Below are positions 44,311 through 62,906 of a stretch of 64,000 bases of DNA, piece after piece. The stretch lies in contig OZ255843.1 in NCBI GenBank assembly GCA_965277775.1, positions 455,451-519,450 on the forward strand, read 5' to 3'. Every line of letters starts with the position of its first letter. The stretch's first letter is position 1. The notes below the pieces were generated by a model that saw nothing but the letters and a program-made list of their open reading frames with translations, made no database searches and had not been told where the DNA came from. Source of the stretch: Gammaproteobacteria bacterium. GTDB lineage: Bacteria; Pseudomonadota; Gammaproteobacteria; CAKMZV01. The translations under genes and the position numbers were made by a program.

Positions 44311-44337
44311 ATTTCATTTCATCTTAGGAGAGCTAAT

Positions 44338-45954: not shown

Positions 45955-46057
45955 AAATTCTAAAAAAGGGATTTGGCTGACTTTTCTTGGGTTGATGCTC
46001 ATTGTGATATTTGTGTTTACATATACCATCATGAGCGGGGTTGTTAAAGGAACCTAA
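45947..46057 (+). CDS. possible small single-TM protein of the oxidase operon
   Basis: 36-aa ORF MAKNSKKGIWLTFLGLMLIVIFVF... overlapping ctaD stop; not verified. Confidence 0.3.
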   Translation: MAKNSKKGIWLTFLGLMLIVIFVFTYTIMSGVVKGT

Positions 46058-46059
46058 TT

Positions 46060-46641: not shown

Positions 46642-46655
46642 AATCAGGAGATAAC

Positions 46656-47531
46656 ATGGCACATTCCTCAAATTCATATTACATCCCGCATGGTACTTCA
46701 TGGCCGATTATTGGCTCAATTGGCTTATTCATTATGTTATCGGGTTTTGCCAGCATGCTTCACGATTCACCGCTTGGTGGTACCATGTTAGCCGTTGGTT
46801 TGGCCATACTGCTCATCATGCTTTTTGGGTGGTTCTCTGAAGTCGTCAGCGAAAGTGAAAAAGGCATGTACAACGCCCAAGTTGACTTATCATTCCGTTG
46901 GGCAATGGGGTGGTTCATTTTCTCTGAAGTCATGTTCTTTGCCGCATTTTTTGGGGCTTTATTTTATGCCCGTGTGCTTTCAATCCCATGGTTAGACGGC
47001 GCAGGCACTGGCGCCATGACGAACGCACTACTCTGGCCTGATTTTAGTGCCACTTGGCCGCTGTTAGAATCGCCTGACACAACAAAATATCCCGCACCCT
47101 CTGGCATTGTTGCACCATTTGAAATTCCCTTATTGAACACCATCCTCTTATTGACATCGGGTGTGACCATCACTTGGGCACATCATGCCCTAAAAGCGGG
47201 TAATAGACAGCATCTACTCATCGGCATGTTGTTGACCGTCACATTGGGTATCGCCTTCCTATATTTTCAAGTCATAGAATATCAACACGCCTATGAACAA
47301 TACAGCCTTCGCTTAGACTCCGGTATTTATGGTAGCACCTTCTTCATGCTCACTGGATTTCACGGATTTCACGTGACCTTAGGAACCATCATGTTGATTG
47401 TGATCACCATGCGTTGCGCCAGAGGACACTTCAATAAAGAAAAACATTTTGCCTTTGAAGCCGTCGCTTGGTACTGGCACTTTGTTGACGTCGTATGGTT
47501 AGGATTGTTTATATTTGTTTACTGGCTGTAA
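46656..47531 (+). CDS. coxC: cytochrome c oxidase subunit III
   Basis: 291 aa, 7 TM, COX3 family sequence. Confidence 0.9.
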   Translation: MAHSSNSYYIPHGTSWPIIGSIGLFIMLSGFASMLHDSPLGGTMLAVGLAILLIMLFGWFSEVVSESEKGMYNAQVDLSFRWAMGWFIFSEVMFFAAFFGALFYARVLSIPWLDGAGTGAMTNALLWPDFSATWPLLESPDTTKYPAPSGIVAPFEIPLLNTILLLTSGVTITWAHHALKAGNRQHLLIGMLLTVTLGIAFLYFQVIEYQHAYEQYSLRLDSGIYGSTFFMLTGFHGFHVTLGTIMLIVITMRCARGHFNKEKHFAFEAVAWYWHFVDVVWLGLFIFVYWL

Positions 47532-47584
47532 AACCTCAAAGCTATCTAAGATACCTTAAACAAATCCACGCTACAGATCAAAAA

Positions 47585-47610
47585 GCCACACATTGTTGTG
47601 GCTTTTTTGT
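47585..47610. terminator. rho-independent terminator (bidirectional) after coxC
   Basis: GCCACA-cattgtt-GTGGC stem-loop followed by TTTTTT; A-run on the other side. Confidence 0.7.
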
Positions 47611-47827
47611 GTGCCTTCATTCTGCCCCGATCAATCAGCATTGATCTGCACCTTTAGACTATAGCAAGCCCCCTGCCCTGCAGACCGCCTTAGAACCGCT
47701 CAACGCAAAGAGCAAAACATAGGACATTTCAGCATAAATGCTTGTAAAATATTCATGCAATTGCCACTGGCTGTTATGCTCAAACACCATGCATGGATCA
47801 CATAATAAAGAATAAATAGGAATAACA

Positions 47828-50800
47828 ATGTCAAAATCAAAAATGAATTTTTCCTTTGATGTAGGAATGGCCTCTCTTGGCGTGGCCGTTAATAGAGGCA
47901 ACAAAATCATCCACGCAGACGCCCTCTTAATTCACTTAGAAGCGGGCTCCATAAAAGATGCCGCAACCAAACGACGACAGTATCGTACCAGACAAGCACA
48001 CAAACAACGCGAACAAGTCTTAGAAGACTTTTGGAGAAGCATTGGTAAAGAACCACTGCAACGCAAAAAATTCGAGAAAACAACAAAAGGATTTAAAAAA
48101 ACACCCGCAGATCGACGCTTAGAACAAGAATTTCCCTACGCAGGCGATAACACCGCCTACGCCTCGTCATTGTTGAGAATCATGTTGCTTGAAGGCCACC
48201 CGCTTGAGGATTGGCAAATATACAAAGCACTGAGTGCGGCCATTCAACGTAAAGGCTATGACCACAACGTGCCTTGGAAAACAAAAGACGACGACACAGA
48301 TGTCAGCGACAAAGATTTAGATTTACGCGAAGCCTTTAGTGCATACATTCGTGATATGCCTGAACAATATCAATTACCTTGTTATTTTGATGCAGCAAGA
48401 ATGGGATTGTGGTGCGAAAAAACCAAAAAAATTATTTCTGTCAAACAAGGCTCAAAGAAACCCGAACGCGCCAGAGGCTATAAGGCCGATCGAAAACTGG
48501 TTGATAAAGAATTAAGATTACTCTTGGAAGCGGCGGCCAAGCGCATACCTGAAATGCGCCTTAGCACAGAAGCCATGAATCAACTCATCTATGGCAAAGC
48601 AGAGATCAAACCAACTTCTGACAAAAGATACCCCTCCTATTCGAAGATCACTGGGTTGTTGGGGCAAAAATACCCACGCTTTGAAAATCGTATCGTCAGT
48701 AAATGTGCTTTGATTCCCCGACTGAACGTCTGTAAATCTTCAAATAAGCGGGCCATTGAAGTTGGTTTTTTAATGAAGTTGTTGAATTTACGTTATGAAT
48801 TGTATGATGAATTCACAGGTGATAAACAAGAAAAAAGTCTGAACCATGAACAAATAAAGCAAATATTCCAAGAGCTTAAAACTCAGAAAACAAAAGATTT
48901 TGAACCCGAGTCCTATGCCCAAAGGCTCAAACTGACTAATACCCAACTCAAGAAAAGAATCCAAGCGTTCAGCGGAGAGACTGCTCGGATTAAAAGCGGG
49001 CACGAAACGATAGAAAAGATCAGTATAACAGGCCGAAGTCGTTTTAGCCAGCCGGCGCTATACTTACTCAAACATATGATTTTACAAGGTCTCATACCGC
49101 GAGACTTTCATGCAGACTGTATGAAGCGCATTGAAAATTGTACAGACTCAAATAAGTTTGGGCACAAAATATTTAAAAATGCAACTTATCGTTTTTTTAA
49201 AGAAGATTTTGAATGCCTGAAGCTAATGGATGACAAAATTTACACGCCATCCATGCCCGCCAAACACTCTGACGATGTTAACCAACAAGTCGTCAACATC
49301 ATAAGCTCGTGCAATTGGCCTGAATTACGCCATAGATTAAACGTATTTGATACTGAGTTGCAAAACCTCGTTGAACAATTTGGTCAACCAGAAAGCGTTA
49401 ATTTTGAATTTATTCGTGAAGATTTTCTAAGTCTGGAAAAGAAAACGCAGTATGAAAGCCAAAGCCAACAAGGCAGAGACGAACGAGAGGCGGCAAGAAT
49501 TTCTTTAGCAGAAGCCAACATTAAGACAAACGAGCAAAACATCTTACGCTATCGATTACTGATTGAACAGAAAGGGCAATGTCCCTACACTGGAGAGGCA
49601 TTGAGCATTGCCGCCTTAGAGCATTATGATATTGATCATGTATTTCCAACATCCCAAGGTGGCCCCGATGCCTACTACAACAAGGTATTAACAAGTCACG
49701 TCGTTAATCAGAAACAAAAAGCCGATAAATTACCTTGCGAATTCATAGAGAACTGGAATAGTTACACACAACGTATAGATACAATCTATAAAGATCCTAA
49801 GAATTCCAAGAGACATTTAAGAAAACAAAAACTCTTGAGTGCCACAAGCCGAGATGAAGCAGAGGAATTAATTGAAAAATACACGGGTCTATCAGGCACC
49901 TCGTACATTGCTCGATTGGCCAGAGACATAGTATGCGCACGCTTTGGCTGGATTCCTGGGGCGAAGGATGAAACACAGAAAGTGTTTATTTTCGGTGGTG
50001 GGCTGACCAGTAAAATTGCCAAAGACAATAGTCTTTATAAAGCTCTCTCCGAAGATAACGACCCGTGGAATAAACCACGCCATGATCATCGTCACCATGC
50101 ACTTGATGCTATGGTCATTAGCTATTTAAAAGAATGGGCGCGCGATGAAACGAAGGCTGATTTTTTTACCTTTCCAAAGGGCATTGATAGACACTATTTC
50201 AAAACCAAGCTCGATGAAGTATATCCTCATTACGTCAGCAGAAGGAAACCTGCCTTGAGCGAACAGCCAAAAAAAGGTAAAGACGTCAACCGCACGGAAT
50301 TTCGTAATATCAGCAAAGACCCTGAAGCCAAAGGGCAATGGCATACCAGTAAAACGGTTACTGGTGAGGGAACCTTTCAACACGGTCATTTGATCTACTT
50401 GGATCGAAAGGACAAGGTTCGGCGTACAGCAATTCACAGTTTCCGCTCTCGTTTTCAAGAAGAAAAAATAATACAGCGCGATGAAAATAATCGCATTATT
50501 GGCTTTATCCGCTCGAGTCACTCATTGCACATAAAAGAAAACCTTTTCAAGGCTGTATTATTCGGGGGAAGTATAGAGAAACTTCCTAAGGGAGAATATT
50601 CGATTGAGAAAATACAAAAAAAATGCATCATCGAACACAGTAAAAAAGGCGAGCGCTATAGGATTGATAAAGCCAAGCTTGAAAAACAGTGTATCAGAAA
50701 TAAATTATTGGCAGGGCAAGTTTTTGTATTGCAAGGCTTTCGCCTTGACAAAGCTACAGAAATATCGGGACAATTTCGATATTCTAATGACCACGATTGC

Positions 50801-51109
50801 TTCATAAATGAAGAAACTGATGAACAAGTCATTATAAAATTTGATCGCTTGGTTACTCACCTCCATAAAAATAATTGGCTCACCAGCGATGAGTTATCAA
50901 ATACCAAAATCGTTGAAATAAATACAGCTATTTCAGGTCATAAAGATGATAAGACAGTGAATAACCTACCCGCAGGTTATTATTTAATAAAGCAGTTCCA
51001 AGGCAATTATGTACACCTCAGATCTCAGCAGGGATTAGTCTATAAGTTGACGGTAAACATTTTAAATCCAATATTTAAAGATGAGCCACCATCTACTCCA
51101 TCTTCTTAG
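47828..51109 (+). CDS. cas9: CRISPR-associated endonuclease Cas9, type II-C-like (1093 aa)
   Basis: RuvC-I FSFDVGMASLGVAV; Arg-rich bridge helix KRRQYRTRQAHKQR; RuvC-II NFEFIRE; HNH HYDIDHVFPTSQGG...NKVLT...N; RuvC-III HDHRHHALDAMV; followed by cas1-cas2 and array. Confidence 0.9.
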   Translation: MSKSKMNFSFDVGMASLGVAVNRGNKIIHADALLIHLEAGSIKDAATKRRQYRTRQAHKQREQVLEDFWRSIGKEPLQRKKFEKTTKGFKKTPADRRLEQEFPYAGDNTAYASSLLRIMLLEGHPLEDWQIYKALSAAIQRKGYDHNVPWKTKDDDTDVSDKDLDLREAFSAYIRDMPEQYQLPCYFDAARMGLWCEKTKKIISVKQGSKKPERARGYKADRKLVDKELRLLLEAAAKRIPEMRLSTEAMNQLIYGKAEIKPTSDKRYPSYSKITGLLGQKYPRFENRIVSKCALIPRLNVCKSSNKRAIEVGFLMKLLNLRYELYDEFTGDKQEKSLNHEQIKQIFQELKTQKTKDFEPESYAQRLKLTNTQLKKRIQAFSGETARIKSGHETIEKISITGRSRFSQPALYLLKHMILQGLIPRDFHADCMKRIENCTDSNKFGHKIFKNATYRFFKEDFECLKLMDDKIYTPSMPAKHSDDVNQQVVNIISSCNWPELRHRLNVFDTELQNLVEQFGQPESVNFEFIREDFLSLEKKTQYESQSQQGRDEREAARISLAEANIKTNEQNILRYRLLIEQKGQCPYTGEALSIAALEHYDIDHVFPTSQGGPDAYYNKVLTSHVVNQKQKADKLPCEFIENWNSYTQRIDTIYKDPKNSKRHLRKQKLLSATSRDEAEELIEKYTGLSGTSYIARLARDIVCARFGWIPGAKDETQKVFIFGGGLTSKIAKDNSLYKALSEDNDPWNKPRHDHRHHALDAMVISYLKEWARDETKADFFTFPKGIDRHYFKTKLDEVYPHYVSRRKPALSEQPKKGKDVNRTEFRNISKDPEAKGQWHTSKTVTGEGTFQHGHLIYLDRKDKVRRTAIHSFRSRFQEEKIIQRDENNRIIGFIRSSHSLHIKENLFKAVLFGGSIEKLPKGEYSIEKIQKKCIIEHSKKGERYRIDKAKLEKQCIRNKLLAGQVFVLQGFRLDKATEISGQFRYSNDHDCFINEETDEQVIIKFDRLVTHLHKNNWLTSDELSNTKIVEINTAISGHKDDKTVNNLPAGYYLIKQFQGNYVHLRSQQGLVYKLTVNILNPIFKDEPPSTPSS

Positions 51110-51965
51110 CCCCAACATTTTCATTAATAAACAAAATGGGCTATTAAATTATGTGCGGGGAGATGAGCGCAGACAGTTGCCCCTTGAAGACATTCGTGGT
51201 GTCATCATTGCCACCAAAGGGGTCACACTAACCGATGCCATAATATCGGCATTGCTTGAAAATGGTGCATTTATACTGCACTGCAATGCCCAGTACCAAC
51301 CCATTGGATTGACCGAACCCACAGCCAAAATAGTGCGTCGTAAAGTGGCACAGTGTCAAGCCAAAGCGACTCAAAAGCTTTGTAAAGCGCTCTGGCAACG
51401 AATATTGCGCCAAAAAATCCAAAATCAAAGAAAAACGCTGAAATTCATTGGATGTTCCACCGATTATTTGGATAAGCAGTTAAATCAAAATAACTTGAAT
51501 GAATCGATCTGTGCTCGTCAATATTGGCGAGCCATGTTTATTGATTTGGGCTATGTTGGTTTAACGCGTCGTCACGACAATGAACATGATATTAATAAAA
51601 TGCTCAATTATGCTTATGCCGTCTTAGGTGCCATTTGTCATCGATCTATTGTCGCCCATGGTATGAGCCCATTGTTTGGCGTACACCACACCGCCAATTT
51701 TCACAATCATCCGTTGGTTTACGATTTAATCGAGCCATTTCGCCCCTTCATCGACAAACAATTGTGGTTATTTATAAAAAATGGGGATTCCAGTGTCGAT
51801 CTAAAAAATTGGTTGAATTTTTCCAAAAATTGTTGGCAAATGACCATTCATCACAATCAACGTCGTTTGCAATTAATTGATGCTGTGGATGTGGTTGTAC
51901 AAAAAATGGCCCAAGCTTTTCAAACTAAAGATGCTCAAGCGTTATGGCTTCCAGAAGTTCCATAA
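51081..51965 (+). CDS. cas1: CRISPR-associated endonuclease Cas1 (type II)
   Basis: RRQLPLEDIRGVIIATKGVTLTDAIISALLENGAFILHCNAQYQPIG closely resembles type II-C Cas1; overlaps cas9 3' end. Confidence 0.9.
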   Translation: MSHHLLHLLSPNIFINKQNGLLNYVRGDERRQLPLEDIRGVIIATKGVTLTDAIISALLENGAFILHCNAQYQPIGLTEPTAKIVRRKVAQCQAKATQKLCKALWQRILRQKIQNQRKTLKFIGCSTDYLDKQLNQNNLNESICARQYWRAMFIDLGYVGLTRRHDNEHDINKMLNYAYAVLGAICHRSIVAHGMSPLFGVHHTANFHNHPLVYDLIEPFRPFIDKQLWLFIKNGDSSVDLKNWLNFSKNCWQMTIHHNQRRLQLIDAVDVVVQKMAQAFQTKDAQALWLPEVP

Positions 51966-51967
51966 AA

Positions 51968-52291
51968 ATGGGCAGAATACTGGTACTGTTTGACCTACCG
52001 GTTAATACAGCGAAAGAGCGTAAAATTGCGTCAAAATTCCGAAAGGACATGCTTAACGATGGCTACATCATGCTCCAGTTCTCAGTCTATATGAGAACTT
52101 TTGTCTCGTGGGAGCGCATGAAAAAGCACGCCAAACGCCTCGCCCTTATGGCCCCCAATGGAGGCAACATAAGGATTTTTTTCATTACCGAAAAACAATG
52201 GCTTAAGTCCATAAGCATTGACGACATGGCGTATAAGCAAAAAAAGCAAATACGAACCCCACATCAATTGGATCTATTTACCATCTGGTAA
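51968..52291 (+). CDS. cas2: CRISPR-associated endoribonuclease Cas2
   Basis: MGRILVLFDLP...GYIMLQFSVYMR; ATG 51968 is 2 nt after cas1 stop; frame is open from 51944. Confidence 0.85.
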   Translation: MGRILVLFDLPVNTAKERKIASKFRKDMLNDGYIMLQFSVYMRTFVSWERMKKHAKRLALMAPNGGNIRIFFITEKQWLKSISIDDMAYKQKKQIRTPHQLDLFTIW

Positions 52292-52412
52292 CGAAGAGCA
52301 GTGCTTAGTAAGTTGTCGAATTAGTTAAGATCCCCATCTGCATATAGCTACGATCAACTTATTAGGGTGCTCAGAATTTGTTTAAATTATATATCCTATT
52401 AATTTTTTATGT
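52292..52412. promoter_or_regulatory. AT-rich cas2-array junction (possible leader)
   Basis: 121 bp AT-rich non-coding segment directly abutting first repeat. Confidence 0.35.
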
Positions 52413-55400
52413 ATTATACTCTGCTGGAAAAACGGGGGGGATCAAAACGGAAAACATTGCTACAAATGCAATTTCCGCATTATACTCTGCTGGAAAAACG
52501 GGGGGGATCAAAACATTTGGAATGAGTGGTTTAGAGATCAGAAATTATACTCTGCTGGAAAAACGGGGGGGATCAAAACCTAACTGACACCTTTTGTAAA
52601 ATGGTGGCAATTATACTCTGCTGGAAAAACGGGGGGGATCAAAACCCTACACCCGTGGGAAAAATCGATAAACTGATTATACTCTGCTGGAAAAACGGGG
52701 GGGATCAAAACCAGCGGGAAATGTCCAACACAGCTTTACAAATTATACTCTGCTGGAAAAACGGGGGGGATCAAAACTGCATTTTCGGTTATGATTTTCC
52801 AGACAAAATTATACTCTGCTGGAAAAACGGGGGGGATCAAAACCCGAATACCACCCTTGACCCGTGGCATTACATTATACTCTGCTGGAAAAACGGGGGG
52901 GATCAAAACGAACCACACAAGACAGCGGTTTAATGTGGCATTATACTCTGCTGGAAAAACGGGGGGGATCAAAACGTTTGGGGTGATCGAAAACGATCAC
53001 AATTAATTATACTCTGCTGGAAAAACGGGGGGGATCAAAACTGCTCGCTTAAATGAGCGAAGGTTGGCCAATTATACTCTGCTGGAAAAACGGGGGGGAT
53101 CAAAACAAACTGGTCAAAATATACAGTAAGTATGACATTATACTCTGCTGGAAAAACGGGGGGGATCAAAACCAGCGCGCGATCATGAGGCAGCTGGGCT
53201 CAATTATACTCTGCTGGAAAAACGGGGGGGATCAAAACGTCGTACTTGCTATATATTTTGACAAGTTTATTATACTCTGCTGGAAAAACGGGGGGGATCA
53301 AAACCAGACTGACACCTTTTGTAAAATGGTGGCAATTATACTCTGCTGGAAAAACGGGGGGGATCAAAACTACCGTTTGGTCTGGGATAATTTTGAGAAA
53401 TTATACTCTGCTGGAAAAACGGGGGGGATCAAAACAATTCAGAGAGGCGGTCGCCATGCAGCATTATTATACTCTGCTGGAAAAACGGGGGGGATCAAAA
53501 CTGGCATTACTCTATTAATTTCCCTTCTTTAATTATACTCTGCTGGAAAAACGGGGGGGATCAAAACTGGCCTACTCGGCTCAATGGGCGACGCGGAATT
53601 ATACTCTGCTGGAAAAACGGGGGGGATCAAAACCGAACCGTGCTATCAAACTCACCAGCCTTAATTATACTCTGCTGGAAAAACGGGGGGGATCAAAACC
53701 CGATCGACCAACTTGTTAATGTTGACTTATTATACTCTGCTGGAAAAACGGGGGGGATCAAAACCCAAACACGACCCTTGACCCTTGGCATTATATTATA
53801 CTCTGCTGGAAAAACGGGGGGGATCAAAACAGGTAAGGCCTCTTCAACAAAGACTGGCAATTATACTCTGCTGGAAAAACGGGGGGGATCAAAACAAATC
53901 CTTCGATTTTTCGTGGACAGTCAATATTATACTCTGCTGGAAAAACGGGGGGGATCAAAACTCGGTTCGCGCTTCAGCATATAAGTCAGCGATTATACTC
54001 TGCTGGAAAAACGGGGGGGATCAAAACCAGAGAGCTAATCCCCATTCAAGAAGCGATATTATACTCTGCTGGAAAAACGGGGGGGATCAAAACTACAAAG
54101 GAGAACAAAAGGTTACTCATCCGATTATACTCTGCTGGAAAAACGGGGGGGATCAAAACTAGCTCAGCGATTGGGAAAAGGGCATCATATTATACTCTGC
54201 TGGAAAAACGGGGGGGATCAAAACCTTCGAGTGTGGTTCTTTGGACTGCTTGTTATTATACTCTGCTGGAAAAACGGGGGGGATCAAAACATCAACAGTT
54301 ATTGTAAGTTCCTTTGAAGCATTATACTCTGCTGGAAAAACGGGGGGGATCAAAACCGAACTGTGATCAGCTCTGCCACGTTCAGATTATACTCTGCTGG
54401 AAAAACGGGGGGGATCAAAACTTCGTATGCATTTAATTACATTTCACCTAGATTATACTCTGCTGGAAAAACGGGGGGGATCAAAACATACGTGAATATA
54501 TGCCGATCTTTGAACTCATTATACTCTGCTGGAAAAACGGGGGGGATCAAAACAGATTTCGAGATTTCCTTCGATATTTGCAAATTATACTCTGCTGGAA
54601 AAACGGGGGGGATCAAAACAACCTGCAGACCATTAAAGACGAACCCCGCATTATACTCTGCTGGAAAAACGGGGGGGATCAAAACTTAAAATGGAACTGC
54701 ATATCCATTATGAGTATTATACTCTGCTGGAAAAACGGGGGGGATCAAAACGATAATAGGATTGACATTGATAGCTACTTGATTATACTCTGCTGGAAAA
54801 ACGGGGGGATCAAAACAGATACTGGACTTTTAGTTCCAGTCTTTGTATTATACTCTGCTGGAAAAACGGGGGGGATCAAAACATGGGTCAAACCTAAAAC
54901 CAACTGAACCAATTATACTCTGCTGGAAAAACGGGGGGGATCAAAACACCAGCACGCTGCTGGATTAGCTGGCATTGATTATACTCTGCTGGAAAAACGG
55001 GGGGGATCAAAACTGCGGGTTGATCTGGGTAAATACTTTCAATATTATACTCTGCTGGAAAAACGGGGGGGATCAAAACCCCCAAACCAGCTCCACTGAT
55101 TCCACGACTATTATACTCTGCTGGAAAAACGGGGGGGATCAAAACCCTATGACAAGTCTTGATAAATTTATTGAAATTATACTCTGCTGGAAAAACGGGG
55201 GGGATCAAAACGGACATTTAAAATTTATAATAAAAACGAAGATTATACTCTGCTGGAAAAACGGGGGGGATCAAAACAGATACTGGACTTTTAGTTCCAG
55301 TCTTTGTATTATACTCTGCTGGAAAAACGGGGGGGATCAAAACCGGCGAACCGCCCGATTATGTTAAAGCTTTATTATACTCTGCTGGAAAAACGGGGGG

Positions 55401-57111
55401 GATCAAAACCCCCAAACGAGTTCTACCGATTCGACGACTATTATACTCTGCTGGAAAAACGGGGGGGATCAAAACTATACACCTCCAGCAACAAAAACAA
55501 CCCTTATTATACTCTGCTGGAAAAACGGGGGGGATCAAAACCTTATTGAGCTCGGGATATTCCCAGATCCAATTATACTCTGCTGGAAAAACGGGGGGGA
55601 TCAAAACTGCGGTTTGATCCTTGACACGGCTGGTCACATTATACTCTGCTGGAAAAACGGGGGGGATCAAAACCATTGCTTTTGCGCTGAATTCCATCGG
55701 GCAATTATACTCTGCTGGAAAAACGGGGGGGATCAAAACTGCGGGCAGTATTTGCTATTTGGTGAGCGTATTATACTCTGCTGGAAAAACGGGGGGGATC
55801 AAAACCAGCACGCACACCATAATTGCATTACACACATTATACTCTGCTGGAAAAACGGGGGGGATCAAAACTATCGCTTGGTGTGGGACAATTTCGAGAA
55901 ATTATACTCTGCTGGAAAAACGGGGGGGATCAAAACGTATCTGTATCAGCACTATTTTTTATAAGATTATACTCTGCTGGAAAAACGGGGGGGATCAAAA
56001 CCATTGAGATGAGCGTAGCTGAATGGTCGAGATTATACTCTGCTGGAAAAACGGGGGGGATCAAAACTGATGATGAAGTTGCAAGACGTGCACGCGCATT
56101 ATACTCTGCTGGAAAAACGGGAGGGATCAAAACCGACGATGTCTCGTCGCCCAGGTATAGCGGATTATACTCTGCTGGAAAAACGGGGGGGATCAAAACC
56201 TGGCGATGTGTACCCCACCGATTACATTAATTATACTCTGCTGGAAAAACGGGGGGGATCAAAACTCGTACAATGGGCTTGAATATCCAACAGACATTAT
56301 ACTCTGCTGGAAAAACGGGGGGGATCAAAACGGATTGATCGGTGTCGATAAACGGGCGAAAATTATACTCTGCTGGAAAAACGGGGGGGATCAAAACCGG
56401 CCATACAGAATGAAAAAAACAAAAAGTATTATACTCTGCTGGAAAAACGGGGGGGATTATACTCTGCTGGAAAAACGGGGGGGATCAAAACGTATTACCA
56501 CCTAACGAAGCCCACTTGGATATTATACTCTGCTGGAAAAACGGGGGGGATCAAAACTGAATAAACAGACATAGTAACTCCTAATTAATTATACTCTGCT
56601 GGAAAAACGGGGGGGATCAAAACTAGGAGGTGCAAGAATGATAATGTCGTTGAATTATACTCTGCTGGAAAAACGGGGGGGATCAAAACTAGGAGGTGCA
56701 AGAATGATAATGTCGTTGAATTATACTCTGCTGGAAAAACGGGGGGGATCAAAACCTAATTCTTTGATTATGTATTTCCCTTCTATTATACTCTGCTGGA
56801 AAAACGGGGGGGATCAAAACGATGAAGGCGTTCTGATGAACAGTCACAGAATTATACTCTGCTGGAAAAACGGGGGGGATCAAAACTTATAATTTCTATT
56901 TCGTCGTCAACGTCCATTATACTCTGCTGGAAAAACGGGGGGGATCAAAACGAAACATTGCATTCTGACTTCGTTGGCTTTATTATACTCTGCTGGAAAA
57001 ACGGGGGGGATCAAAACTAAAACCCCGGTCAAAGACTGATCGGGGGGATTATACTCTGCTGGAAAAACGGGGGGGATTATACTCTGCTGGAAAAACGGGG
57101 GGGATCAAAAC
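52413..57111 (-). CRISPR. CRISPR array, ~71 x 36-bp repeat, spacers 29-31 bp; plus-strand repeat ATTATACTCTGCTGGAAAAACGGGGGGGATCAAAAC; canonical type II orientation is minus strand GTTTTGATCCCCCCCGTTTTTCCAGCAGAGTATAAT
   Basis: directly visible 66-bp periodicity over 4.7 kb; first repeat 52413-52448, last full repeat ends 57111; orientation inferred from GTTTTG...AAT form and the TATAAT at the repeat end. Confidence 0.97.
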
Positions 57112-57114
57112 TCC

Positions 57115-57303
57115 TTGGAGCAAACAGAACAAATTGAAGGGCATGAGGTCAAAGATTTTAGTGTGAGTGAAACGATGAAATATGATCATCTACCACAGAT
57201 TGATGTCGCCCACAAATGGGGGTTTGACGTTAGATTTTCGTTCATAGACAAACCTGATGTTCTTGGGAAGCTGTATCCTACTGATAAAAAAATATTTAAC
57301 TAA
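57115..57303 (+). CDS. hypothetical small protein
   Basis: 62-aa ORF immediately after array; coding status uncertain. Confidence 0.3.
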   Translation: MEQTEQIEGHEVKDFSVSETMKYDHLPQIDVAHKWGFDVRFSFIDKPDVLGKLYPTDKKIFN

Positions 57304-57364
57304 TGAATAAGGCAGTGCATTTTTTCACGAATTAGTTCACTATGCGGATCATCTTTGTGGTAGC

Positions 57365-57619
57365 ATGCTTCTTAAAACGCCGAGCGAAAGTGAGATTGTT
57401 GCTGAATTTGGCGCAGCGGTCTTGAAAAGAATGCATATGGATAGCACTGATGAATACCTTAAAGAAAGTATCCATTATGTCGAATATCATGCAAGAAAAA
57501 CTGGGAAGGGTGCATATGAGGCCGCAACAGACCTTATACAGCGATCATTGTCTGCAATTGAATTGATTGACCAAACGGCTCAGGAAATTAAAAACAAGAC
57601 AAAGTCTTCTAAAGAATAG
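57365..57619 (+). CDS. hypothetical small protein
   Basis: 84-aa ORF, plausible composition. Confidence 0.35.
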   Translation: MLLKTPSESEIVAEFGAAVLKRMHMDSTDEYLKESIHYVEYHARKTGKGAYEAATDLIQRSLSAIELIDQTAQEIKNKTKSSKE

Positions 57620-57654
57620 TACTCAGAATAACCATATTTAACAGGTCCATTATT

Positions 57655-58866
57655 ATGAGAAATTCAATTTTAGGTTTAATCGCTATATCAATTGCTATGA
57701 TGTTAAGTGGTTGCGGTTCTGCAAAAGATGATCCAATAATTCCAATCAGCACAAACACTCGTACCATTCAGACACAACAGGTTAATGAGGTCCGCAATGC
57801 AATGACAAATGTCGATGCAAGTCTGGTTGCATACCAGCGCGCAACCTCCGCATCAGATATACAGGCTCAAACAAACGCTTTAACACTAATGGCATCCAGC
57901 TTAGAGCAGCTCACAACAGCCGTGCGAGTAGCTCAACCATATTTAGATTACTCGTTATACAGAGCAGTTGCTGACCAGATGGGGAGGATCGATCAAGCGG
58001 GCATGCAAAACGTTCAGGTTATGGCTCAAATGGCGCAGGTAGAAATTATTACGGCAGTTGGTTTTTTAAGAACAAGCCGCGCACAGCTTCAAAGCACAAC
58101 AGATAGACTAAGTGTGCTCGATCGATCGATGGCTGCAACAAATGCTAGGTTAAACGTTATTGAGTCCGGCACAACCACATCAGTCGATAAAGTCAGGCTT
58201 TTAGTCCTTGCAGAAGTTGCCCGCTTAACAAGCTCTGATACAGCCATTCAGAACAGGATAACCACAGTGACCAACTCGCTCACAACGGCTATCGCTGATA
58301 ACACAAGGCTGATTGCTCAAAACTCATCGAACACCGCCGCCCAGTTGTTGAGCATAAATTCATCATTAACAAACATCATTGATCAAAACAATGCGCAAGG
58401 GCTCATAAATACATCAACAACCAGAGCGATTGAGGCAATGAGGGCAGTTATTGGTGAGCAGATAAGCCAAGAGGTGGCGAAACTACAAGCAAATATAAAT
58501 GCTAACCACAGCACATTAACAGCGCGAATTGATTTGTTGCAACAAGCAGTTGACGTGCTCCAAACAACAACAGTCATATCAATTGTCAGCAGTCTAAACG
58601 CCCATGTCATTACCCAAGGTGTTGTAAATAGCTCTTTAAGCTCATCAATCTTGAGCTTACAAACATCATTAACGAACTACATCGCATCATCAATTTTGTC
58701 ATTGTCTAACTCTTTATCAGCCACATCATCAACAGTCAATGCCCGGATTGATCAACTGCATTCAATTGTGGGGGCATTGCGAAATGAAGACTACCAGCTA
58801 GCTGTGCTAATAAGCAGTTTAACCAGTCGGGTGACTAGTAACTCAACCACCACCCAATCCAGATAA
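57655..58866 (+). CDS. lipoprotein with long alpha-helical Ser/Thr/Asn/Gln-rich repeat region
   Basis: lipobox MMLSGCGS; the C-terminal ~220 aa is ~90% identical to the N-terminus of the next ORF. Confidence 0.6.
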   Translation: MRNSILGLIAISIAMMLSGCGSAKDDPIIPISTNTRTIQTQQVNEVRNAMTNVDASLVAYQRATSASDIQAQTNALTLMASSLEQLTTAVRVAQPYLDYSLYRAVADQMGRIDQAGMQNVQVMAQMAQVEIITAVGFLRTSRAQLQSTTDRLSVLDRSMAATNARLNVIESGTTTSVDKVRLLVLAEVARLTSSDTAIQNRITTVTNSLTTAIADNTRLIAQNSSNTAAQLLSINSSLTNIIDQNNAQGLINTSTTRAIEAMRAVIGEQISQEVAKLQANINANHSTLTARIDLLQQAVDVLQTTTVISIVSSLNAHVITQGVVNSSLSSSILSLQTSLTNYIASSILSLSNSLSATSSTVNARIDQLHSIVGALRNEDYQLAVLISSLTSRVTSNSTTTQSR

Positions 58867-58907
58867 GCCTCATCCAAGCAGAGCTGCTCAATCTTAATGC
58901 TCATAGA

Positions 58908-61900
58908 TTGTCTATTCTTGCACAAGTTGCACGGCTCTCAAGTACTGATGCGGCCATTCAGAGTAGGATAACGACAGTAACCAACACGCTTATAACGGCT
59001 ATCGCAGACAACATACGACTAATTGCTCAAAACTCATCGAGCACTGCTGCCCAGTTGTTGAGCATAAACTCCTCATTGACAAGCATCATTGCCCAAAACA
59101 ATGCGCAAGGGCTCATCAACTCATCCACCACCAGAGCGATTGAAGCAATGAGAATGGCCATTAGCGCTCAGATCACCCAAGAAGTGGCCAAATTACAAAC
59201 AAATATAAACGCCAATCACAGCACATTAACAGCAAGAATTGATTTGTTGCAGCAAGCAATAGACGTTCTCCAAACAACCACTGTCATATCAATTATCAAC
59301 AGCTTGAACGCGCACGTCATCACACAAGGGGTTGTGAACAGCTCACTAACCGCCTCAATATTGAGCTTACAGGCCTCCTTAACCAACTACATTACTTCAT
59401 CGATTTTATCGCTGTCAACCTCTTTAACAGTGACCTCCTCAACTATAAATGCTCGGATCGACCAACTCAACTGGGTTATTGGCGGGCTGGTCAGCGAGGA
59501 TGCAAGGTTAGCTCTGGTTATTGCTGGATTGACCAGCTCTATCACCTCCAGTTTGAACAACTCATCGAACCAAATTTCCATACTTCAGGCACAGGTCGCA
59601 CAGCTTACGGCTAGTGTAAGCGCACTACAAGCACTCCATAGAACACCGGACGTTCCAATTGGGACGCCCACTAATGTTGCTGGTAAAGCGGTAGACGGAT
59701 TAGTCATAGGCGGAACAGTAAGGGTTTACACCATCAATGAAAGCGACTACTCACCAAACATTCTTATTGGCTCGACGAAAACAGATTCAAACGGGGCGTT
59801 CAGTGTCACTCTTTACGGGCTTACCGCAACACAAATATTACTTTATGAAGTTTCTGGCGGCTATTACATTGAAGAGTGGACACAACAACGATTTGATCTT
59901 CGAACAGGTGATAAACTGTATGCAATTGATAGGGTTGAGACGACATCAGGCACGGCCAATGTTTCAATAACCATCTCAGGCTTTACAAATCTAACATATG
60001 CACTGGCGCTTTATCGTAAAAACCACACATACATTGACTCGTCACTAAGAATTAGACCAACAATTTCGCAGGCAAGGGATTATGCGACACCGATTGTGAA
60101 TTTAGTATTAGGCGGAGTGAATGCTGAAAAAACTGTTTTCAAAGACATCACATCATCTGACTACGCTGTTTCCAAGCCACAATTTGCTTCTGACGTTGAT
60201 TCATTTTGGTACTCATTTTATGTTTCGGGCGTTTCAGGTTTAATGGCTAGTGAAAGCGTGAAGCAAGGCGCTAATTTTTATTCAATTGATTTTTGGAAGG
60301 CGCTTTATGATGACGTTTTAACTGACGGTGTTATTGACGGGAAAGGCATCAATTTAAAGCAGATAGGGATAGGTATTCGTCCGCTTGAGCCTGATATGCT
60401 CAGAACAGAGGCTATGCGCTTTGCGAATCAATTCAAAACATCTAAACTACAACACATCCGATTTGACACAAACGGGCATTCAAGTTTTGAACAAAAAATG
60501 AACATTGTGCATAGCTCGACCGATCCTATATTCGGCAAAATAAGCGCCAGCCCACTTGATGGTGACCCACCCATAATAAAAGCCAACCCGATTGCAGGCG
60601 CTATTACAACCAACCATGTGGTGGTTACTATAAGCGACGCATCATCAATAACAAGTATGATCTACTCCCTACTTGATAGCAATAACACCGAACTCAGTAG
60701 GACGGTTTATGATCTGCTCAATCATTCTGGCGGTAATGCATACAAGTTAAGCGTTGATCTTAACCAAACTTCAGGAATATACAAAATGGTTATAACTGCC
60801 TCCGATGGCCATTTGTTAAGCCGTTCAACAGTAACATTCTCCATTGTCAATGACGCGCCAAAACTTTCAATAACATCATCCACCCGAACCACAACCGGGA
60901 CGATAACAATACACGGCTCTTATTCTCTCCCATACCCTCAATTTACGGACATACAAAGCATCTCTATAAGCGATACGGTCAATGGTATGGGGACAAAGCA
61001 GGCAATAATTAATACAGGAACAAAAACATTCACAAGCTCCTTTTCTGCAAACTCCTCTGGCCTGTACACGATTGACATTAAAGTTTGCGATACTATTGGC
61101 AACTGTCACACATATGTCATCAAAAGATCCGTTGATAAAGACAGCCCGCGCATTTTTTCATCGGCCTTCGGTCAAGGTGCAGGACTAAAACAATGGTACA
61201 TATCGCCCTCTCTTGGTTACCAGGCATTTTGGGGGCGGATAAATCCTTATTTCGTTGAGCGAACCGTTAGCCAGCTAAAAATATCAGGCGCTTACGATAG
61301 AATAAGCAGTCATTTGTTTTCAAACGGCAATTATAAACTTGGTGCTACAATAATTACTGAGCGCGAATTAGACCAAGCGAACATTAACTATTATGCCTTT
61401 AACGCTGATGACACAGGACTACCAGCATCAACTCCGCTTGACGATTTAGTTATTAAATTAAAATATAGCACGGCAAGCTATAACGCACACTATTACAAAT
61501 CGGGTCCATCCTCTTACACCTCTATCCCACCCACATCCAAAACAATAACCATTGTTAAAGAAACGACGATGAGCGCGCGCACATTTGCAACAGCTCTTGG
61601 CACAAAATCAAAAAGGGTGATAATACCTCTAACAACTGAGTTCTGGGGCAATAGCCTTATCAAAGAGAACTTGTTTACAACCCACATTTTTGAAATAAGC
61701 GTGTGTGATAAGGCGGGACTGTGCACAACCAAAACATTTGGCCTTTTACTGGCTATTGAATCGCCCACACAGAAGTCATTGAACGGATCACTAACTACTT
61801 TGCAAAAAGATTTAAATTTTTTGCAAGGAGTTACACCTCTTGTGAATAGAAAACGCCAAATGGGTGGTGAAAAACAGTTTTACAAATATTCAGTTAAGAA

Positions 61901-62906
61901 CACAGAGGTGATGCCTTTGTTCATCAACATTGGCTCGATCAATTCGGTGGCCACCCTCACAAGAACATTCCAACAGAAAACTGTTCTCAATGTTCCCGAA
62001 TGGAATCGAAGCATGTTTGCTGTGAGATCGGTTTCATGCTCCGATCCCGACGTTACTAAACCAAACACAACCGCTGTAACACAAATCAGCCTTAAAGAGA
62101 ACTTTCGAGTTTCAACGCTGTTGTCCAAAAACCAGCCCGACCCAATAACTGTGGGAGAACCGTGCAAATTCAGAGATTTTGACGGAAGAACACTTTACTC
62201 TGTAACAACATCCACTGGCTTTCATTTTACGGATTGTAGTCGCGATCAAGGTTACTACACTGCAACAACCTCCACCTACAAGGCCTTCTCTACAACACCA
62301 ACGAACACTTATTACAACAACAGCTCCTGTTCGTACCGCACACCATACACTGCAATATGCCAAAGAGGTAGCTCTAAAGCAGGGTACCAGGACTACCTTT
62401 GCACAAAACATCACACGCACACCCGGACAAGACAAAATGGAGTGTTCCACAATAATATTAGGCCATATCACACAACAAAAACCGTATCTGTGCCATACGT
62501 GATTTCAAGATATTTTTACAATAGACACGTACTGACATCTAGCACAACAACAATTAAGGAGACAACAACAGACCACCCTTCGCATTTTAACGCTAAGCTA
62601 GGCGGACTTGATTTCGGCATCAGCACGGGATCGTCCACCTCTTGGTTCAAGATACCGCCCGGCGAAACCATTGAGTTTTTCGATTCTTTGTTGGTGAACG
62701 CGCCTTCTTGGCATGACAACAATGGTACTGATTTAGACAACATCCTCACCGAAGGTGTCTACAGAAAGGACATCTCCCTTGAATTCAACTATAAACCAAC
62801 ATTCGTAGTGAAAATCAAACGAGCAGATGACATTAATTCACTCACAACCCCTTTGATTGAAGAAACATCCGACAATCTACCAGCCCAACAAATACTACTA
62901 AAATAG
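58908..62906 (+). CDS. very large (1332 aa) putative surface/adhesin-like protein
   Basis: N-terminal segment duplicated from the upstream lipoprotein, then ~1100 aa Thr/Ser-rich beta-type sequence with many Cys near the C-terminus; no family recognised. Confidence 0.55.
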   Translation: MSILAQVARLSSTDAAIQSRITTVTNTLITAIADNIRLIAQNSSSTAAQLLSINSSLTSIIAQNNAQGLINSSTTRAIEAMRMAISAQITQEVAKLQTNINANHSTLTARIDLLQQAIDVLQTTTVISIINSLNAHVITQGVVNSSLTASILSLQASLTNYITSSILSLSTSLTVTSSTINARIDQLNWVIGGLVSEDARLALVIAGLTSSITSSLNNSSNQISILQAQVAQLTASVSALQALHRTPDVPIGTPTNVAGKAVDGLVIGGTVRVYTINESDYSPNILIGSTKTDSNGAFSVTLYGLTATQILLYEVSGGYYIEEWTQQRFDLRTGDKLYAIDRVETTSGTANVSITISGFTNLTYALALYRKNHTYIDSSLRIRPTISQARDYATPIVNLVLGGVNAEKTVFKDITSSDYAVSKPQFASDVDSFWYSFYVSGVSGLMASESVKQGANFYSIDFWKALYDDVLTDGVIDGKGINLKQIGIGIRPLEPDMLRTEAMRFANQFKTSKLQHIRFDTNGHSSFEQKMNIVHSSTDPIFGKISASPLDGDPPIIKANPIAGAITTNHVVVTISDASSITSMIYSLLDSNNTELSRTVYDLLNHSGGNAYKLSVDLNQTSGIYKMVITASDGHLLSRSTVTFSIVNDAPKLSITSSTRTTTGTITIHGSYSLPYPQFTDIQSISISDTVNGMGTKQAIINTGTKTFTSSFSANSSGLYTIDIKVCDTIGNCHTYVIKRSVDKDSPRIFSSAFGQGAGLKQWYISPSLGYQAFWGRINPYFVERTVSQLKISGAYDRISSHLFSNGNYKLGATIITERELDQANINYYAFNADDTGLPASTPLDDLVIKLKYSTASYNAHYYKSGPSSYTSIPPTSKTITIVKETTMSARTFATALGTKSKRVIIPLTTEFWGNSLIKENLFTTHIFEISVCDKAGLCTTKTFGLLLAIESPTQKSLNGSLTTLQKDLNFLQGVTPLVNRKRQMGGEKQFYKYSVKNTEVMPLFINIGSINSVATLTRTFQQKTVLNVPEWNRSMFAVRSVSCSDPDVTKPNTTAVTQISLKENFRVSTLLSKNQPDPITVGEPCKFRDFDGRTLYSVTTSTGFHFTDCSRDQGYYTATTSTYKAFSTTPTNTYYNNSSCSYRTPYTAICQRGSSKAGYQDYLCTKHHTHTRTRQNGVFHNNIRPYHTTKTVSVPYVISRYFYNRHVLTSSTTTIKETTTDHPSHFNAKLGGLDFGISTGSSTSWFKIPPGETIEFFDSLLVNAPSWHDNNGTDLDNILTEGVYRKDISLEFNYKPTFVVKIKRADDINSLTTPLIEETSDNLPAQQILLK

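What the first reader, a model, noticed from the sequence alone, without database searches (positions are those of the whole stretch)
52413..57111. Every repeat ends in a perfect TATAAT -10 box, pointing to repeat-embedded promoters and antisense crRNA transcription
Read on the minus strand, the repeat is GTTTTGATCCCCCCCGTTTTTCCAGCAGAGTATAAT. It starts with GTTTTG and ends with AAT, like the N. meningitidis and C. jejuni II-C repeats. Its last six bases are the sigma70 -10 consensus, placed so that transcription would begin inside or just after each repeat and run into the adjacent spacer, toward cas2. In Neisseria this arrangement produces crRNAs from many internal promoters without RNase III processing. 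Here the signal is stronger than in Nme, being a perfect TATAAT in all ~71 copies. It would also mean the array is transcribed antisense to the cas operon.
Basis: partly seen in the sequence, partly recalled or inferred. Interest (0 to 1): 0.7.

Follow-up and report, generated by a model that had tools for sequence, protein, structure and literature searches.

The report
Promoter-like box in every CRISPR repeat
A 71-repeat Cas9 CRISPR array carries a perfect -10 promoter box at the end of every repeat, and comparison with relatives indicates that its guide RNAs are started one by one on the strand opposite the cas genes, a design already known from Neisseria and Campylobacter; its helper RNA (tracrRNA), however, appears to be wired in an unusual, circularly permuted order.

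Summary
Window 52413-57111 holds 71 full 36-nt repeats and two 28-nt partial copies, and all 73 end in TATAAT on the minus strand, flush with the repeat end.

- The locus is cas9-cas1-cas2 followed by the array.
- Across 45 distinct repeats of this Cas9 family, the repeat's 3' end has the conservation profile of an extended -10 box ([T/G]-G-n-T-A-n-A-[A/C]-T).
- A tracrRNA gene lies between cas2 and the array. In relatives it has its own promoter and intrinsic terminator on the minus strand.
- G-U wobble pairs in the repeat:anti-repeat duplex favour the minus strand 36 to 12.
- Degenerate repeats sit at the cas-distal end.

This is the arrangement shown experimentally in N. meningitidis and C. 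jejuni, so this is a new member of a known kind.

Two claims do not hold. The box is not clearly stronger than in Nme, because it lacks the TG extension and any -35. Starts are expected about 5-8 nt into the spacer, not 9-10.

Unexpected by-product: the tracrRNA gene of this clade is a circular permutation of its relatives' gene.

The parts
47828..51109 (+). cas9 (1093 aa), from a divergent clade
   Evidence: NCBIfam TIGR01865 (Cas9) and NF049971 ('Cas9d', 637 bits, residues 8-813 only). Pfam HNH_4 and RuvC_III. The best solved Cas9 reaches only E=1.5e-12, over the HNH/RuvC region.
51081..51965 (+). cas1 (type II, NMENI class)
   Evidence: TIGR03639, 2e-48.
51944..52291 (+). cas2
   Evidence: TIGR01573, 2.4e-18.
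52290..52379 (-). Predicted tracrRNA. Read on the minus strand: GCAC 52370-52367, arm B 52365-52352, linker 52351-52336, anti-repeat GGGGAUCUUAAC 52335-52324, linker 52323-52319, arm A 52318-52305, CACUGC 52303-52298, U-rich tail 52297-52290.
   Evidence: An inverted degenerate repeat is conserved at this position in the whole Cas9 family. The stem covaries: 16 of 19 pairs show compensatory change, 95.9% of cells are paired, and 0 of 500 shuffles match. Covariance model R1 hits it. The two ends are inferred, not shown.
52386..52391 (-). TATAAT box in the leader; predicted tracrRNA promoter (-10 only)
   Evidence: A positionally conserved minus-strand promoter lies between repeat 1 and the anti-repeat in relatives; the minus strand scores better than the plus strand in 27 loci against 3. 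In the gamma relatives the box sits 7 nt upstream of GCACC.
52392..52412 (.). AT-rich leader flank next to repeat 1; the acquisition end of the array
   Evidence: The flank ATTyyyAyGT next to repeat 1 is conserved in relatives. Degenerate repeats occur only at the other end.
52413..57111 (-). CRISPR array: 71 full repeats plus 2 partial copies, 29-30-nt spacers. Each repeat ends in TATAAT on the minus strand.
52413..52418 (-). The -10 hexamer of the leader-adjacent repeat, as an example of the 73 copies. This one points into the leader and tracrRNA gene.
   Evidence: In C. jejuni most tracrRNA is reported to come from such upstream repeat promoters (PMC3656092).

Best explanation
This is a type II-C-like CRISPR-Cas9 locus built like those of C. 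jejuni and N. meningitidis. The cas9-cas1-cas2 operon runs on the plus strand. All the small RNAs are made from the minus strand and converge on the operon.

Proposed mechanism:
1. Each repeat ends in a -10 element. Here it is a bare, perfect TATAAT; in most relatives it is TGnTAnAnT.
2. RNA polymerase starts about 5-8 nt into the next spacer. This yields a primary crRNA of roughly 22-25 nt of guide followed by the next repeat, GUUUUGAUCCCC....
3. The first 12-13 nt of that repeat pair with the anti-repeat of a tracrRNA encoded between the array and cas2 on the same strand.
4. New spacers enter at the cas2-proximal end, which is the transcriptionally downstream end.

Shown: the anatomy, the conservation profile, the tracrRNA gene and its strand in relatives.
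Inferred: that the TATAAT boxes actually fire, the start sites, and the ends of the tracrRNA.
For: 1. Anatomy.

2. Repeat logo from 45 distinct repeats of the Cas9 family, from Gammaproteobacteria, Verrucomicrobia, Melainabacteria, Spirochaetes and others:
- -14 G in 39/45
- -13 not conserved
- -12 T in 42/45
- -11 A in 43/45
- -10 not conserved (0.08 bit)
- -9 A in 44/45
- -8 A or C
- -7 T in 43/45
This is the profile of an extended -10 element. It is absent from the plus strand of the family.

3. Apparent compensation. All ten closest gamma relatives (L002-L011) have TGn with a 4-5/6 hexamer, while the window/L080 lineage has no TG and a 6/6 hexamer. All 14 hexamers scoring 4/6 or less have G at -14. 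The leader box for the tracrRNA has likewise become a bare TATAAT in this lineage.

4. Strand of the small RNAs:
- The anti-repeat pairs with the GUUUUGA end of the repeat, which is the spacer-adjacent end only for a minus-strand crRNA.
- G-U versus A-C asymmetry in the duplex is 36 to 12, binomial p = 7e-4.
- In Verrucomicrobia-type relatives the anti-repeat is followed by a hairpin plus U-run that terminates only on the minus strand.
- In those relatives it is preceded by TTGACA-N16-18-TAnAnT on the minus strand, at a fixed +4/+5 nt from repeat 1.

5. Degenerate terminal repeats lie at the cas-distal end in L002, L003, L005, L007, L009, L010, L011 and L080, and there is no conserved cas-distal flank. 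A conserved external promoter upstream of the array on the minus strand is therefore unlikely. None was found by the scan either.

6. Precedent. Repeat-embedded promoters and antisense arrays were shown experimentally in Nme and Cje (PMC3737331; PMC5965381; PMC3656092; PMC12477760).
Against: - There are no transcript data of any kind.
- The window repeat lacks the TG extension that Nme and Cje have, and it lacks a -35. A bare -10 hexamer is usually a weak sigma-70 promoter.
- In the window itself the tracrRNA stem folds better as plus-strand RNA (-26.6 kcal/mol, z -4.2) than as minus-strand RNA (-14.9, z -0.7), because two pairs are G-U on plus and A-C on minus. The duplex in the window offers no informative wobble position.
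- The PAM-side test of orientation could not be completed.
- The family sequences are not phylogenetically independent, so the p-value is only indicative.
Confidence: 0.7

Rival explanations
1. The array is transcribed on the minus strand, but the TATAAT is conserved mainly as a recognition motif for Cas1-Cas2 integration at the leader-proximal repeat end. Transcription would come from read-through or from occasional promoters in spacers, and crRNAs would be matured by tracrRNA and RNase III.
For: - The motif sits at the leader-repeat junction side.
- The repeat ends resemble each other in inverted orientation: GTTTTG against ATTnTA.
- The window box has neither TG nor -35.
- Relatives have long, near-perfect repeat:anti-repeat duplexes of 26-32 bp, suitable for RNase III.
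Against: - G at -14 lies outside the terminal inverted motif and is conserved in 39/45, while -13 and -10 are free. That is the promoter pattern.
- TG loss coincides with a perfect hexamer in this lineage.
- There is no conserved cas-distal flank that could hold an external promoter.
- The same motif at the same place is a proven promoter in Nme and Cje.
- The two roles do not exclude each other.
Confidence: 0.15
2. The array is transcribed on the plus strand from the AT-rich leader next to cas2, as in type II-A. The conserved hairpin would be a plus-strand RNA or a cas-operon terminator.
For: - In the window the element folds much better on the plus strand.
- The leader is AT-rich and cas2-proximal.
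- The degenerate-repeat rule predicts plus orientation.
- Each repeat also carries TATACT on the plus strand (one search lists some with chance -35 matches in spacers).
Against: - Every known Cas9 crRNA has the guide 5' of the repeat. With a plus-strand crRNA the conserved pairing would fall on the repeat end adjacent to the next spacer.
- Relatives' terminators and promoters for the tracrRNA work only on the minus strand.
- Wobble asymmetry is 36:12 for minus.
- The degenerate-repeat rule is documented to give the wrong orientation in Nme and Cje (PMC3737331).
- The plus-strand TATACT is not conserved in the family.
- The plus-strand fold can be explained by the hairpin also terminating the convergent cas operon. 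This last point is inference.
Confidence: 0.05
3. Both strands of the array are transcribed from each repeat: TATAAT on minus and TATACT on plus. This would give crRNAs plus antisense RNAs that might modulate crRNA levels.
For: In this lineage the A at -14 creates a 5/6 plus-strand hexamer in every repeat.
Against: - The plus-strand hexamer is specific to this lineage: the complementary position is C in 39/45 family repeats.
- There is no TG and no conserved -35.
- No function is known for such transcripts.
Confidence: 0.1

Closest known systems
Campylobacter jejuni type II-C CRISPR-Cas9 locus (Dugar et al. 2013, PMC3656092)
   Same: - cas9-cas1-cas2 only.
- The array is transcribed against the cas operon.
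- A -10 box lies flush with the 3' end of every repeat, with the start a few nt into the spacer.
- The tracrRNA is reported to be transcribed largely from the upstream repeat promoters, which implies a tracrRNA gene downstream of the array on the same strand, as here.
   Different: - Cje has an extended box (GGTAAAAT); the window has a bare TATAAT.
- The Cas9 here is very distant from any characterised one.
- The tracrRNA here has its own leader box and a permuted order of parts.
- None of this is experimentally tested here.
Neisseria meningitidis type II-C locus (Zhang et al. 2013, as described in PMC5965381 and PMC12477760)
   Same: - 36-nt repeat of the form GTTxxxx...TAnAAT, with 30-nt spacers.
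- Repeat-embedded promoters, with the start at the 6th spacer nucleotide.
- The array is antisense to the cas genes.
- The degenerate-repeat rule gives the 'wrong' orientation (PMC3737331).
   Different: - Nme has TGCTACAAT (TGn plus a 5/6 hexamer); here the sequence is GAGTATAAT (no TG, 6/6).
- The position of the Nme tracrRNA gene was not checked here and may differ.
- The anti-repeat pairing here is only about 10-13 bp.
Type II-A arrays (S. pyogenes type), driven by a leader promoter
   Same: Cas9 with tracrRNA; repeat starts GTTTT; acquisition at a leader next to the cas genes.
   Different: II-A arrays are transcribed from a single leader promoter in the same direction as the cas genes, their repeats end in ...AAAAC with no -10 box, and they have csn2.
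Type II-D (Cas9d) systems
   Same: The Cas9 N-terminal 813 residues pass the NCBIfam model named Cas9d.
   Different: II-D loci carry cas4 with cas1 and cas2, and their Cas9 is compact (PMC12669027). Here there is no cas4 and Cas9 is 1093 aa. No close match to solved Cas9d structures was found.

Membership tests
Type II-C CRISPR-Cas (by gene content) | cas9, cas1 and cas2 present, without csn2 or cas4 | tested here: met
   ORFs 47828-52291 are Cas9, Cas1 and Cas2. The flanking genes are cytochrome oxidase upstream and ORFs without family hits downstream.
Type II-C CRISPR-Cas (by gene content) | tracrRNA with an anti-repeat complementary to the repeat | tested here: met
   Anti-repeat at 52335-52324 on the minus strand; conserved across the family; predicted duplex.
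Nme/Cje-type arrays with repeat-embedded promoters | -10 hexamer flush with the 3' end of the repeat in crRNA orientation | tested here: met
   TATAAT forms the last 6 nt in all 73 copies. TAnA[A/C]T is conserved in the family.
Nme/Cje-type arrays with repeat-embedded promoters | Extended -10 (TGn) immediately upstream of the hexamer | tested here: not met
   The window has GAG before TATAAT. G at -14 is present in 39/45 family repeats and TG in 23/44, but not here.
Nme/Cje-type arrays with repeat-embedded promoters | Array transcribed antisense to the cas operon | tested here: met
   Met by inference only: pairing polarity, wobble asymmetry 36:12, and minus-strand tracrRNA promoters and terminators in relatives. 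No RNA data.
Nme/Cje-type arrays with repeat-embedded promoters | Primary (5'-triphosphate) crRNA ends inside each spacer | not testable with these tools
   Needs dRNA-seq, Cappable-seq or 5' RACE.
Nme/Cje-type arrays with repeat-embedded promoters | Acquisition end (leader) at the transcriptionally downstream end; degenerate repeats at the upstream end | tested here: met
   Degenerate cas-distal repeats in 8 related loci and a conserved cas-proximal flank. In the window both end repeats are perfect.
Type II-D (Cas9d) | Adaptation module includes cas4 | tested here: not met
   No cas4 in the locus. The definition comes from PMC12669027.
Type II-D (Cas9d) | Cas9 matches a Cas9d profile over its full length | tested here: inconclusive
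   NF049971 scores 637 bits against a cutoff of 375, but only over residues 8-813 and profile positions 3-768 of 986.

The most novel reading that the evidence does not exclude
The tracrRNA gene of this clade (the window, its sponge-symbiont gammaproteobacterial relatives and one spirochaete) is a natural circular permutation of the tracrRNA of the related Verrucomicrobia-type systems.

Order of parts, read on the minus strand:
- Relatives: anti-repeat, linker, arm A, C-CACUGC-nnn-GCAC-G loop, arm B, U-run.
- This clade: GCAC-arm B, linker, shortened anti-repeat, linker, arm A-CACUGC.

The hairpin loop has thus become the two ends of the RNA, and the old ends are joined. The permuted form co-occurs with a clade-specific Cas9 C-terminal region of about 260 aa.

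If the RNA ends are as predicted, this would be, to my knowledge, the first permuted tracrRNA, comparable to two-piece tmRNA or permuted twister ribozymes.
Probability: 0.6. Interest if true: 0.65.

Novelty: new member of a known kind. Interest (0 to 1): 0.4.

Why it matters
The finding extends the Neisseria/Campylobacter way of making guide RNAs, with one promoter per repeat and an array antisense to the cas genes, to a deep and uncharacterised Cas9 clade. That clade is found in sponge symbionts, Verrucomicrobia (including Akkermansia-like genomes), Melainabacteria and spirochaetes.

Practical consequences:
- Orientation prediction. Arrays of this clade should be read against the cas operon. 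The usual 'degenerate last repeat' and 'same strand as cas' rules mislead here. This probably explains why Chylinski et al. 2013 found only weak or misplaced anti-repeats for A. muciniphila.
- Guide design. It fixes the crRNA and tracrRNA sequences needed to reconstitute these Cas9 proteins.

The permuted tracrRNA, if confirmed, would show that the Cas9 scaffold tolerates re-threading of its RNA, which is relevant to guide engineering.

Tried and rejected
1. PAM-side test of crRNA orientation: incomplete.
- Only spacer 2 (52515-52543) has database matches, in the gokushovirus VP1 gene.
- None of the 273 spacers of this and related arrays gave a second protospacer in those 37 viral genomes or in any fetched locus.
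- Five further exact or degenerate scans of viral contigs and two of metagenome contigs found nothing.
- Arrays of gut relatives gave only chance hits against phages.
- One protospacer in a conserved coding region cannot define a PAM.

2. Candidate anti-repeat at 57968-57999 (+), inside ORF 57655-58866. It was the best duplex energy in the first scan. Rejected because its similarity to the repeat is at background level and the real anti-repeat lies elsewhere.

3. The region upstream of cas9 (47532-47827) as a tracrRNA site: no anti-repeat. It contains only the terminator of the preceding gene.

4. Rfam: no family matched in 44000-60000.

5. Type II-D membership: rejected on gene content and size.

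6. Statistical test of TG/hexamer compensation: the direction is as expected, but only 4 repeats lack G at -14, so it is not significant.

7. The original Zhang et al. 2013 paper could not be read. Its content is cited through PMC5965381 and PMC12477760.
Full report
**1. The observation**

Window 52413-57111 is a CRISPR array. The plus-strand repeat is ATTATACTCTGCTGGAAAAACGGGGGGGATCAAAAC (36 nt). Sixty-nine copies are perfect and two differ by one change (54782, 56098). Two 28-nt truncated copies (56428-56455, 57048-57075) abut the next repeat. Spacers are 29-30 nt.

All 73 copies end in TATAAT, and 73 of the 74 minus-strand TATAAT hexamers in the array are these.

Because repeats are copies of one another, this amounts to a single observation. 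Its weight comes from comparison with relatives, not from the count.

The box has no TG extension (GAG precedes it) and no -35 (TCCCCC lies at 17 bp), so the two-hexamer scan does not list it. The plus strand of each repeat also holds TATACT (5/6).

**2. The locus**

Upstream on the plus strand lie cas9 (47828-51109, 1093 aa), cas1 (51081-51965) and cas2 (51944-52291). There is no csn2 or cas4, so by gene content the locus is type II-C.

The Cas9 is remote from every solved Cas9 (best E = 1.5e-12, HNH/RuvC region only). Its first 813 residues pass an NCBIfam model named 'Cas9d'. Type II-D as currently defined has cas4 and compact effectors (PMC12669027), so I do not file it there.

Homologues occur in genomes of about 2-Mb marine or sponge-associated Gammaproteobacteria (47-90% identity). 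More distant ones (30-38%) occur in Verrucomicrobia, Lentisphaerae, Melainabacteria, Spirochaetes and others.

**3. Family comparison of the repeat**

In 55 of 79 related loci I found arrays. All lie downstream of cas2 in the same relative orientation.

Forty-five distinct 36-nt repeats, read on the strand opposite to cas9, give this profile at the 3' end:

| Position | Conservation |
|---|---|
| -15 | T or G |
| -14 | G, 39/45 |
| -13 | free |
| -12 | T, 42/45 |
| -11 | A, 43/45 |
| -10 | free (0.08 bit) |
| -9 | A, 44/45 |
| -8 | A or C |
| -7 | T, 43/45 |

The last T is always the last base of the repeat. This is the information profile of an extended -10 element. The same motif at the same place is the experimentally shown crRNA promoter of N. 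meningitidis (repeat ...TGCTACAAT; PMC12477760; PMC5965381) and of C. jejuni (...GGTAAAAT; PMC3656092). The other strand shows no such profile in the family.

The window repeat is one of six without G at -14. Its ten closest gamma relatives all have TGn with a 4-5/6 hexamer, whereas the window and L080 (Cas9 89% identical, same repeat) have no TG and a 6/6 hexamer. All 14 hexamers scoring 4/6 or less have G at -14. This looks like compensation, but the numbers are too small for a test.

**4. The tracrRNA gene and the strand**

Simple searches for an anti-repeat failed at first. Aligning the cas2-array spacer of the gamma relatives then revealed a conserved element.

It is an inverted, degenerate copy of the repeat (plus strand GTTAAGATCCCC..., 52324-52335), enclosed by a long stem. 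The stem covaries strongly: 16 of 19 pairs show compensatory changes, 95.9% of cells are paired, 0 of 500 shuffles reach this, and slid controls reach at most 47%. A covariance model finds the element between cas2 and the array in the window, L001-L012, L014 and L080. An inverted degenerate repeat beginning GTTAAGA lies 30-50 nt from repeat 1 in essentially every locus of the family.

Four independent lines place this RNA, and therefore the crRNAs it pairs with, on the minus strand.

- **Pairing polarity.** The conserved pairing is with GUUUUGAU(U)CCCC. That is the spacer-adjacent 5' end of the repeat only if the crRNA is a minus-strand transcript. All characterised Cas9 crRNAs have the guide 5' of the repeat (established knowledge).
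- **Wobble asymmetry.** Transition mismatches in the duplex give G-U on the minus strand 36 times and on the plus strand 12 times (binomial p = 7e-4; the loci are not independent).
- **Terminators.** In Verrucomicrobia-type relatives the anti-repeat is followed by a 14-bp hairpin and a U-run, which is a terminator only on the minus strand.
- **Promoters.** A TTGACA-N16-18-TAnAnT promoter lies on the minus strand with its -35 starting 4-5 nt after repeat 1. The minus strand scores better than the plus strand in 27 loci against 3. In the gamma relatives a TGATATAAT- or TATATT-type box sits 7 nt upstream of the first base of the element. In the window it is a bare TATAAT at 52391-52386.

One caveat applies. 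In the window itself the stem folds better as plus-strand RNA (-26.6 against -14.9 kcal/mol), because two pairs are G-U on plus and A-C on minus. I suggest, as an inference, that the hairpin also terminates the convergent cas operon on the plus strand, where it is followed by a U-rich stretch.

**5. Polarity of the array**

Mutated repeats are found only at the cas-distal end, in L002, L003, L005, L007, L009, L010, L011 and L080. The cas-distal flank is not conserved, while the cas2-proximal flank is. L080 shares the repeat but no spacer with the window, so turnover is active.

Acquisition is therefore at the cas2-proximal end, which is downstream in the sense of crRNA transcription. Chylinski et al. 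noted the same paradox for Nme and Cje: the degenerate-repeat rule predicts the opposite of the RNA-seq result (PMC3737331). With a decaying, unconserved upstream end, internal promoters are the simplest source of minus-strand transcripts. The scan finds no consensus promoter beyond the array.

**6. Mechanism proposed**

RNA polymerase uses the -10 box at the end of repeat n+1 and starts about 5-8 nt into spacer n (6th nt in Nme, 5th in Cje). It then transcribes the remaining 22-25 nt of spacer and repeat n.

The 5' part of repeat n pairs with the tracrRNA. The predicted duplex in the window is GUU/AAC plus GAUCCCC/GGGGAUC around a conserved 2x2 U-U loop. Cas9 binds this pair. The leader-adjacent repeat's box points into the tracrRNA gene, as reported for Cje.

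Whether RNase III is needed cannot be told. The pairing is short (10-13 bp) in the gamma clade and long (26-32 bp) in the Verrucomicrobia type.

Shown: the anatomy, the conservation, the tracrRNA gene, and its strand in relatives.
Inferred: promoter activity, start sites, RNA ends.

**7.

- 'Stronger than in Nme' is not justified. The hexamer is perfect, but the TG extension that Nme and Cje carry, and that 39/45 family members at least partly keep, is missing.
- The expected start is nearer than 9-10 nt.
- 'Without RNase III' is untestable here.

**8. Rivals**

- The motif might be conserved for Cas1-Cas2 integration rather than for transcription. It lies at the leader-proximal repeat end, and this cannot be excluded by sequence. 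However, G at -14 and the free -13 and -10 positions fit the promoter pattern, and the two roles are compatible.
- Plus-strand, leader-driven transcription is contradicted by section 4.
- Bidirectional transcription from TATACT is possible in this lineage only.

**9. Failed test**

I tried to fix orientation by the PAM side. Spacer 2 matches the conserved IWNEWFRDQ region of gokushovirus VP1 and is identical (29/29) in 35 of the 37 IMG/VR genomes found with its 24-nt core. No second protospacer could be found.

**10. By-product: a permuted tracrRNA**

In Verrucomicrobia-type loci the order on the minus strand is: anti-repeat, 7-nt linker, arm A, C-CACUGC-nnn-GCAC-G, arm B, U-run.

In the window clade (gamma relatives and spirochaete L012) it is: GCAC-C-arm B, linker, short anti-repeat, linker, arm A, G-CACUGC, then a U-rich stretch (U-runs in L006 and L012).

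After cutting and rejoining the gamma sequences in silico, they align without gaps to the Verrucomicrobia type. The linker, arm lengths and both loop motifs stay in register. The -10 box places the start on the G of GCAC.

The permuted form occurs in exactly those loci whose Cas9 aligns with the window's over its full length, to about residue 1080. The others align only to about residue 812-837. I found no report of a permuted tracrRNA in the searchable literature.

The DNA-level permutation is shown. The RNA ends, and that this is the functional tracrRNA, are inferred.

**11. Verdict**

The core interpretation (repeat-embedded promoters, antisense array) is supported by comparative evidence but not demonstrated. 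This is a new member of a known kind, and by itself it is of moderate interest. The permuted tracrRNA is the more novel lead.

Noticed in passing
window 52290-52379 (minus strand); L002-L012 and L014-L078 at the equivalent place: The tracrRNA gene of the window clade is a circular permutation of the gene in Verrucomicrobia-type relatives. The conserved hairpin loop CACUGC-nnn-GCAC is split into the predicted 3' and 5' ends, and arm B has moved upstream of the anti-repeat. Sequences permuted in silico align gaplessly to the relatives.
   Followed up: yes
window 52515-52543 (spacer 2); also 53042-53070 and 53371-53399 with its variant at 55872-55900: Spacer 2 matches the conserved IWNEWFRDQ region of the gokushovirus (Microviridae) major capsid gene and is identical (29/29) in 35 of the 37 IMG/VR genomes that share its 24-nt core. 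Two or three other spacers match VP1 more weakly. Small ssDNA phages therefore seem to be a main target of this symbiont's CRISPR.
   Followed up: partly
window 56428-56455 and 57048-57075; spacers at 54817/55278 and 56624/56690; L004, L005, L007, L009, L080: There are two 28-nt partial repeats fused head-to-tail to a full repeat (tandem duplications of a 28-nt unit), several duplicated spacers, and blocks of 4-5 duplicated spacer-repeat units in relatives. This suggests frequent slippage or recombination within these arrays.
   Followed up: partly
window 52580-52609 vs 53305-53334; 52844-52873 vs 53765-53794; 55080-55109 vs 55410-55439; 53371-53399 vs 55872-55900: Pairs of spacers are diverged versions of the same protospacer in the same register. 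This indicates repeated acquisition from one site in related invaders. None of these has a database match.
   Followed up: partly
window 47828-51109 (cas9), residues ~838-1093: NCBIfam would name this protein Cas9d, although the locus lacks cas4 and the protein is 1093 aa. The model covers only residues 8-813. The C-terminal ~260 residues are shared only with the gamma and L012 relatives, the same clade that has the permuted tracrRNA.
   Followed up: partly
window 57365-62906: Directly after the array lie three plus-strand ORFs (84, 403 and 1332 aa) with no Pfam or NCBIfam match. The close relative L080 has different genes at this position, so this may be an inserted element.
   Followed up: no
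L001 13276-15015: The species-representative relative (Cas9 87% identical but truncated) has a decayed locus. cas1 and cas2 are disrupted, there are about 7 degenerate repeats, and the tracrRNA stem carries non-compensated changes.
   Followed up: partly
window 52413-57111, plus strand, repeat positions 3-8: Each repeat also carries TATACT (5/6 of the -10 consensus) on the plus strand. It is created by the same A at -14 that removes the TG extension on the minus strand, and it is not conserved in the family.
   Followed up: partly
window 47571-47606: A clean intrinsic terminator (AAAAAGCCACACATTGTTGTGGCTTTTTTG) follows the cytochrome oxidase subunit III gene. It is separated from the cas9 start by a ~220-nt spacer that contains no anti-repeat.
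   Followed up: no
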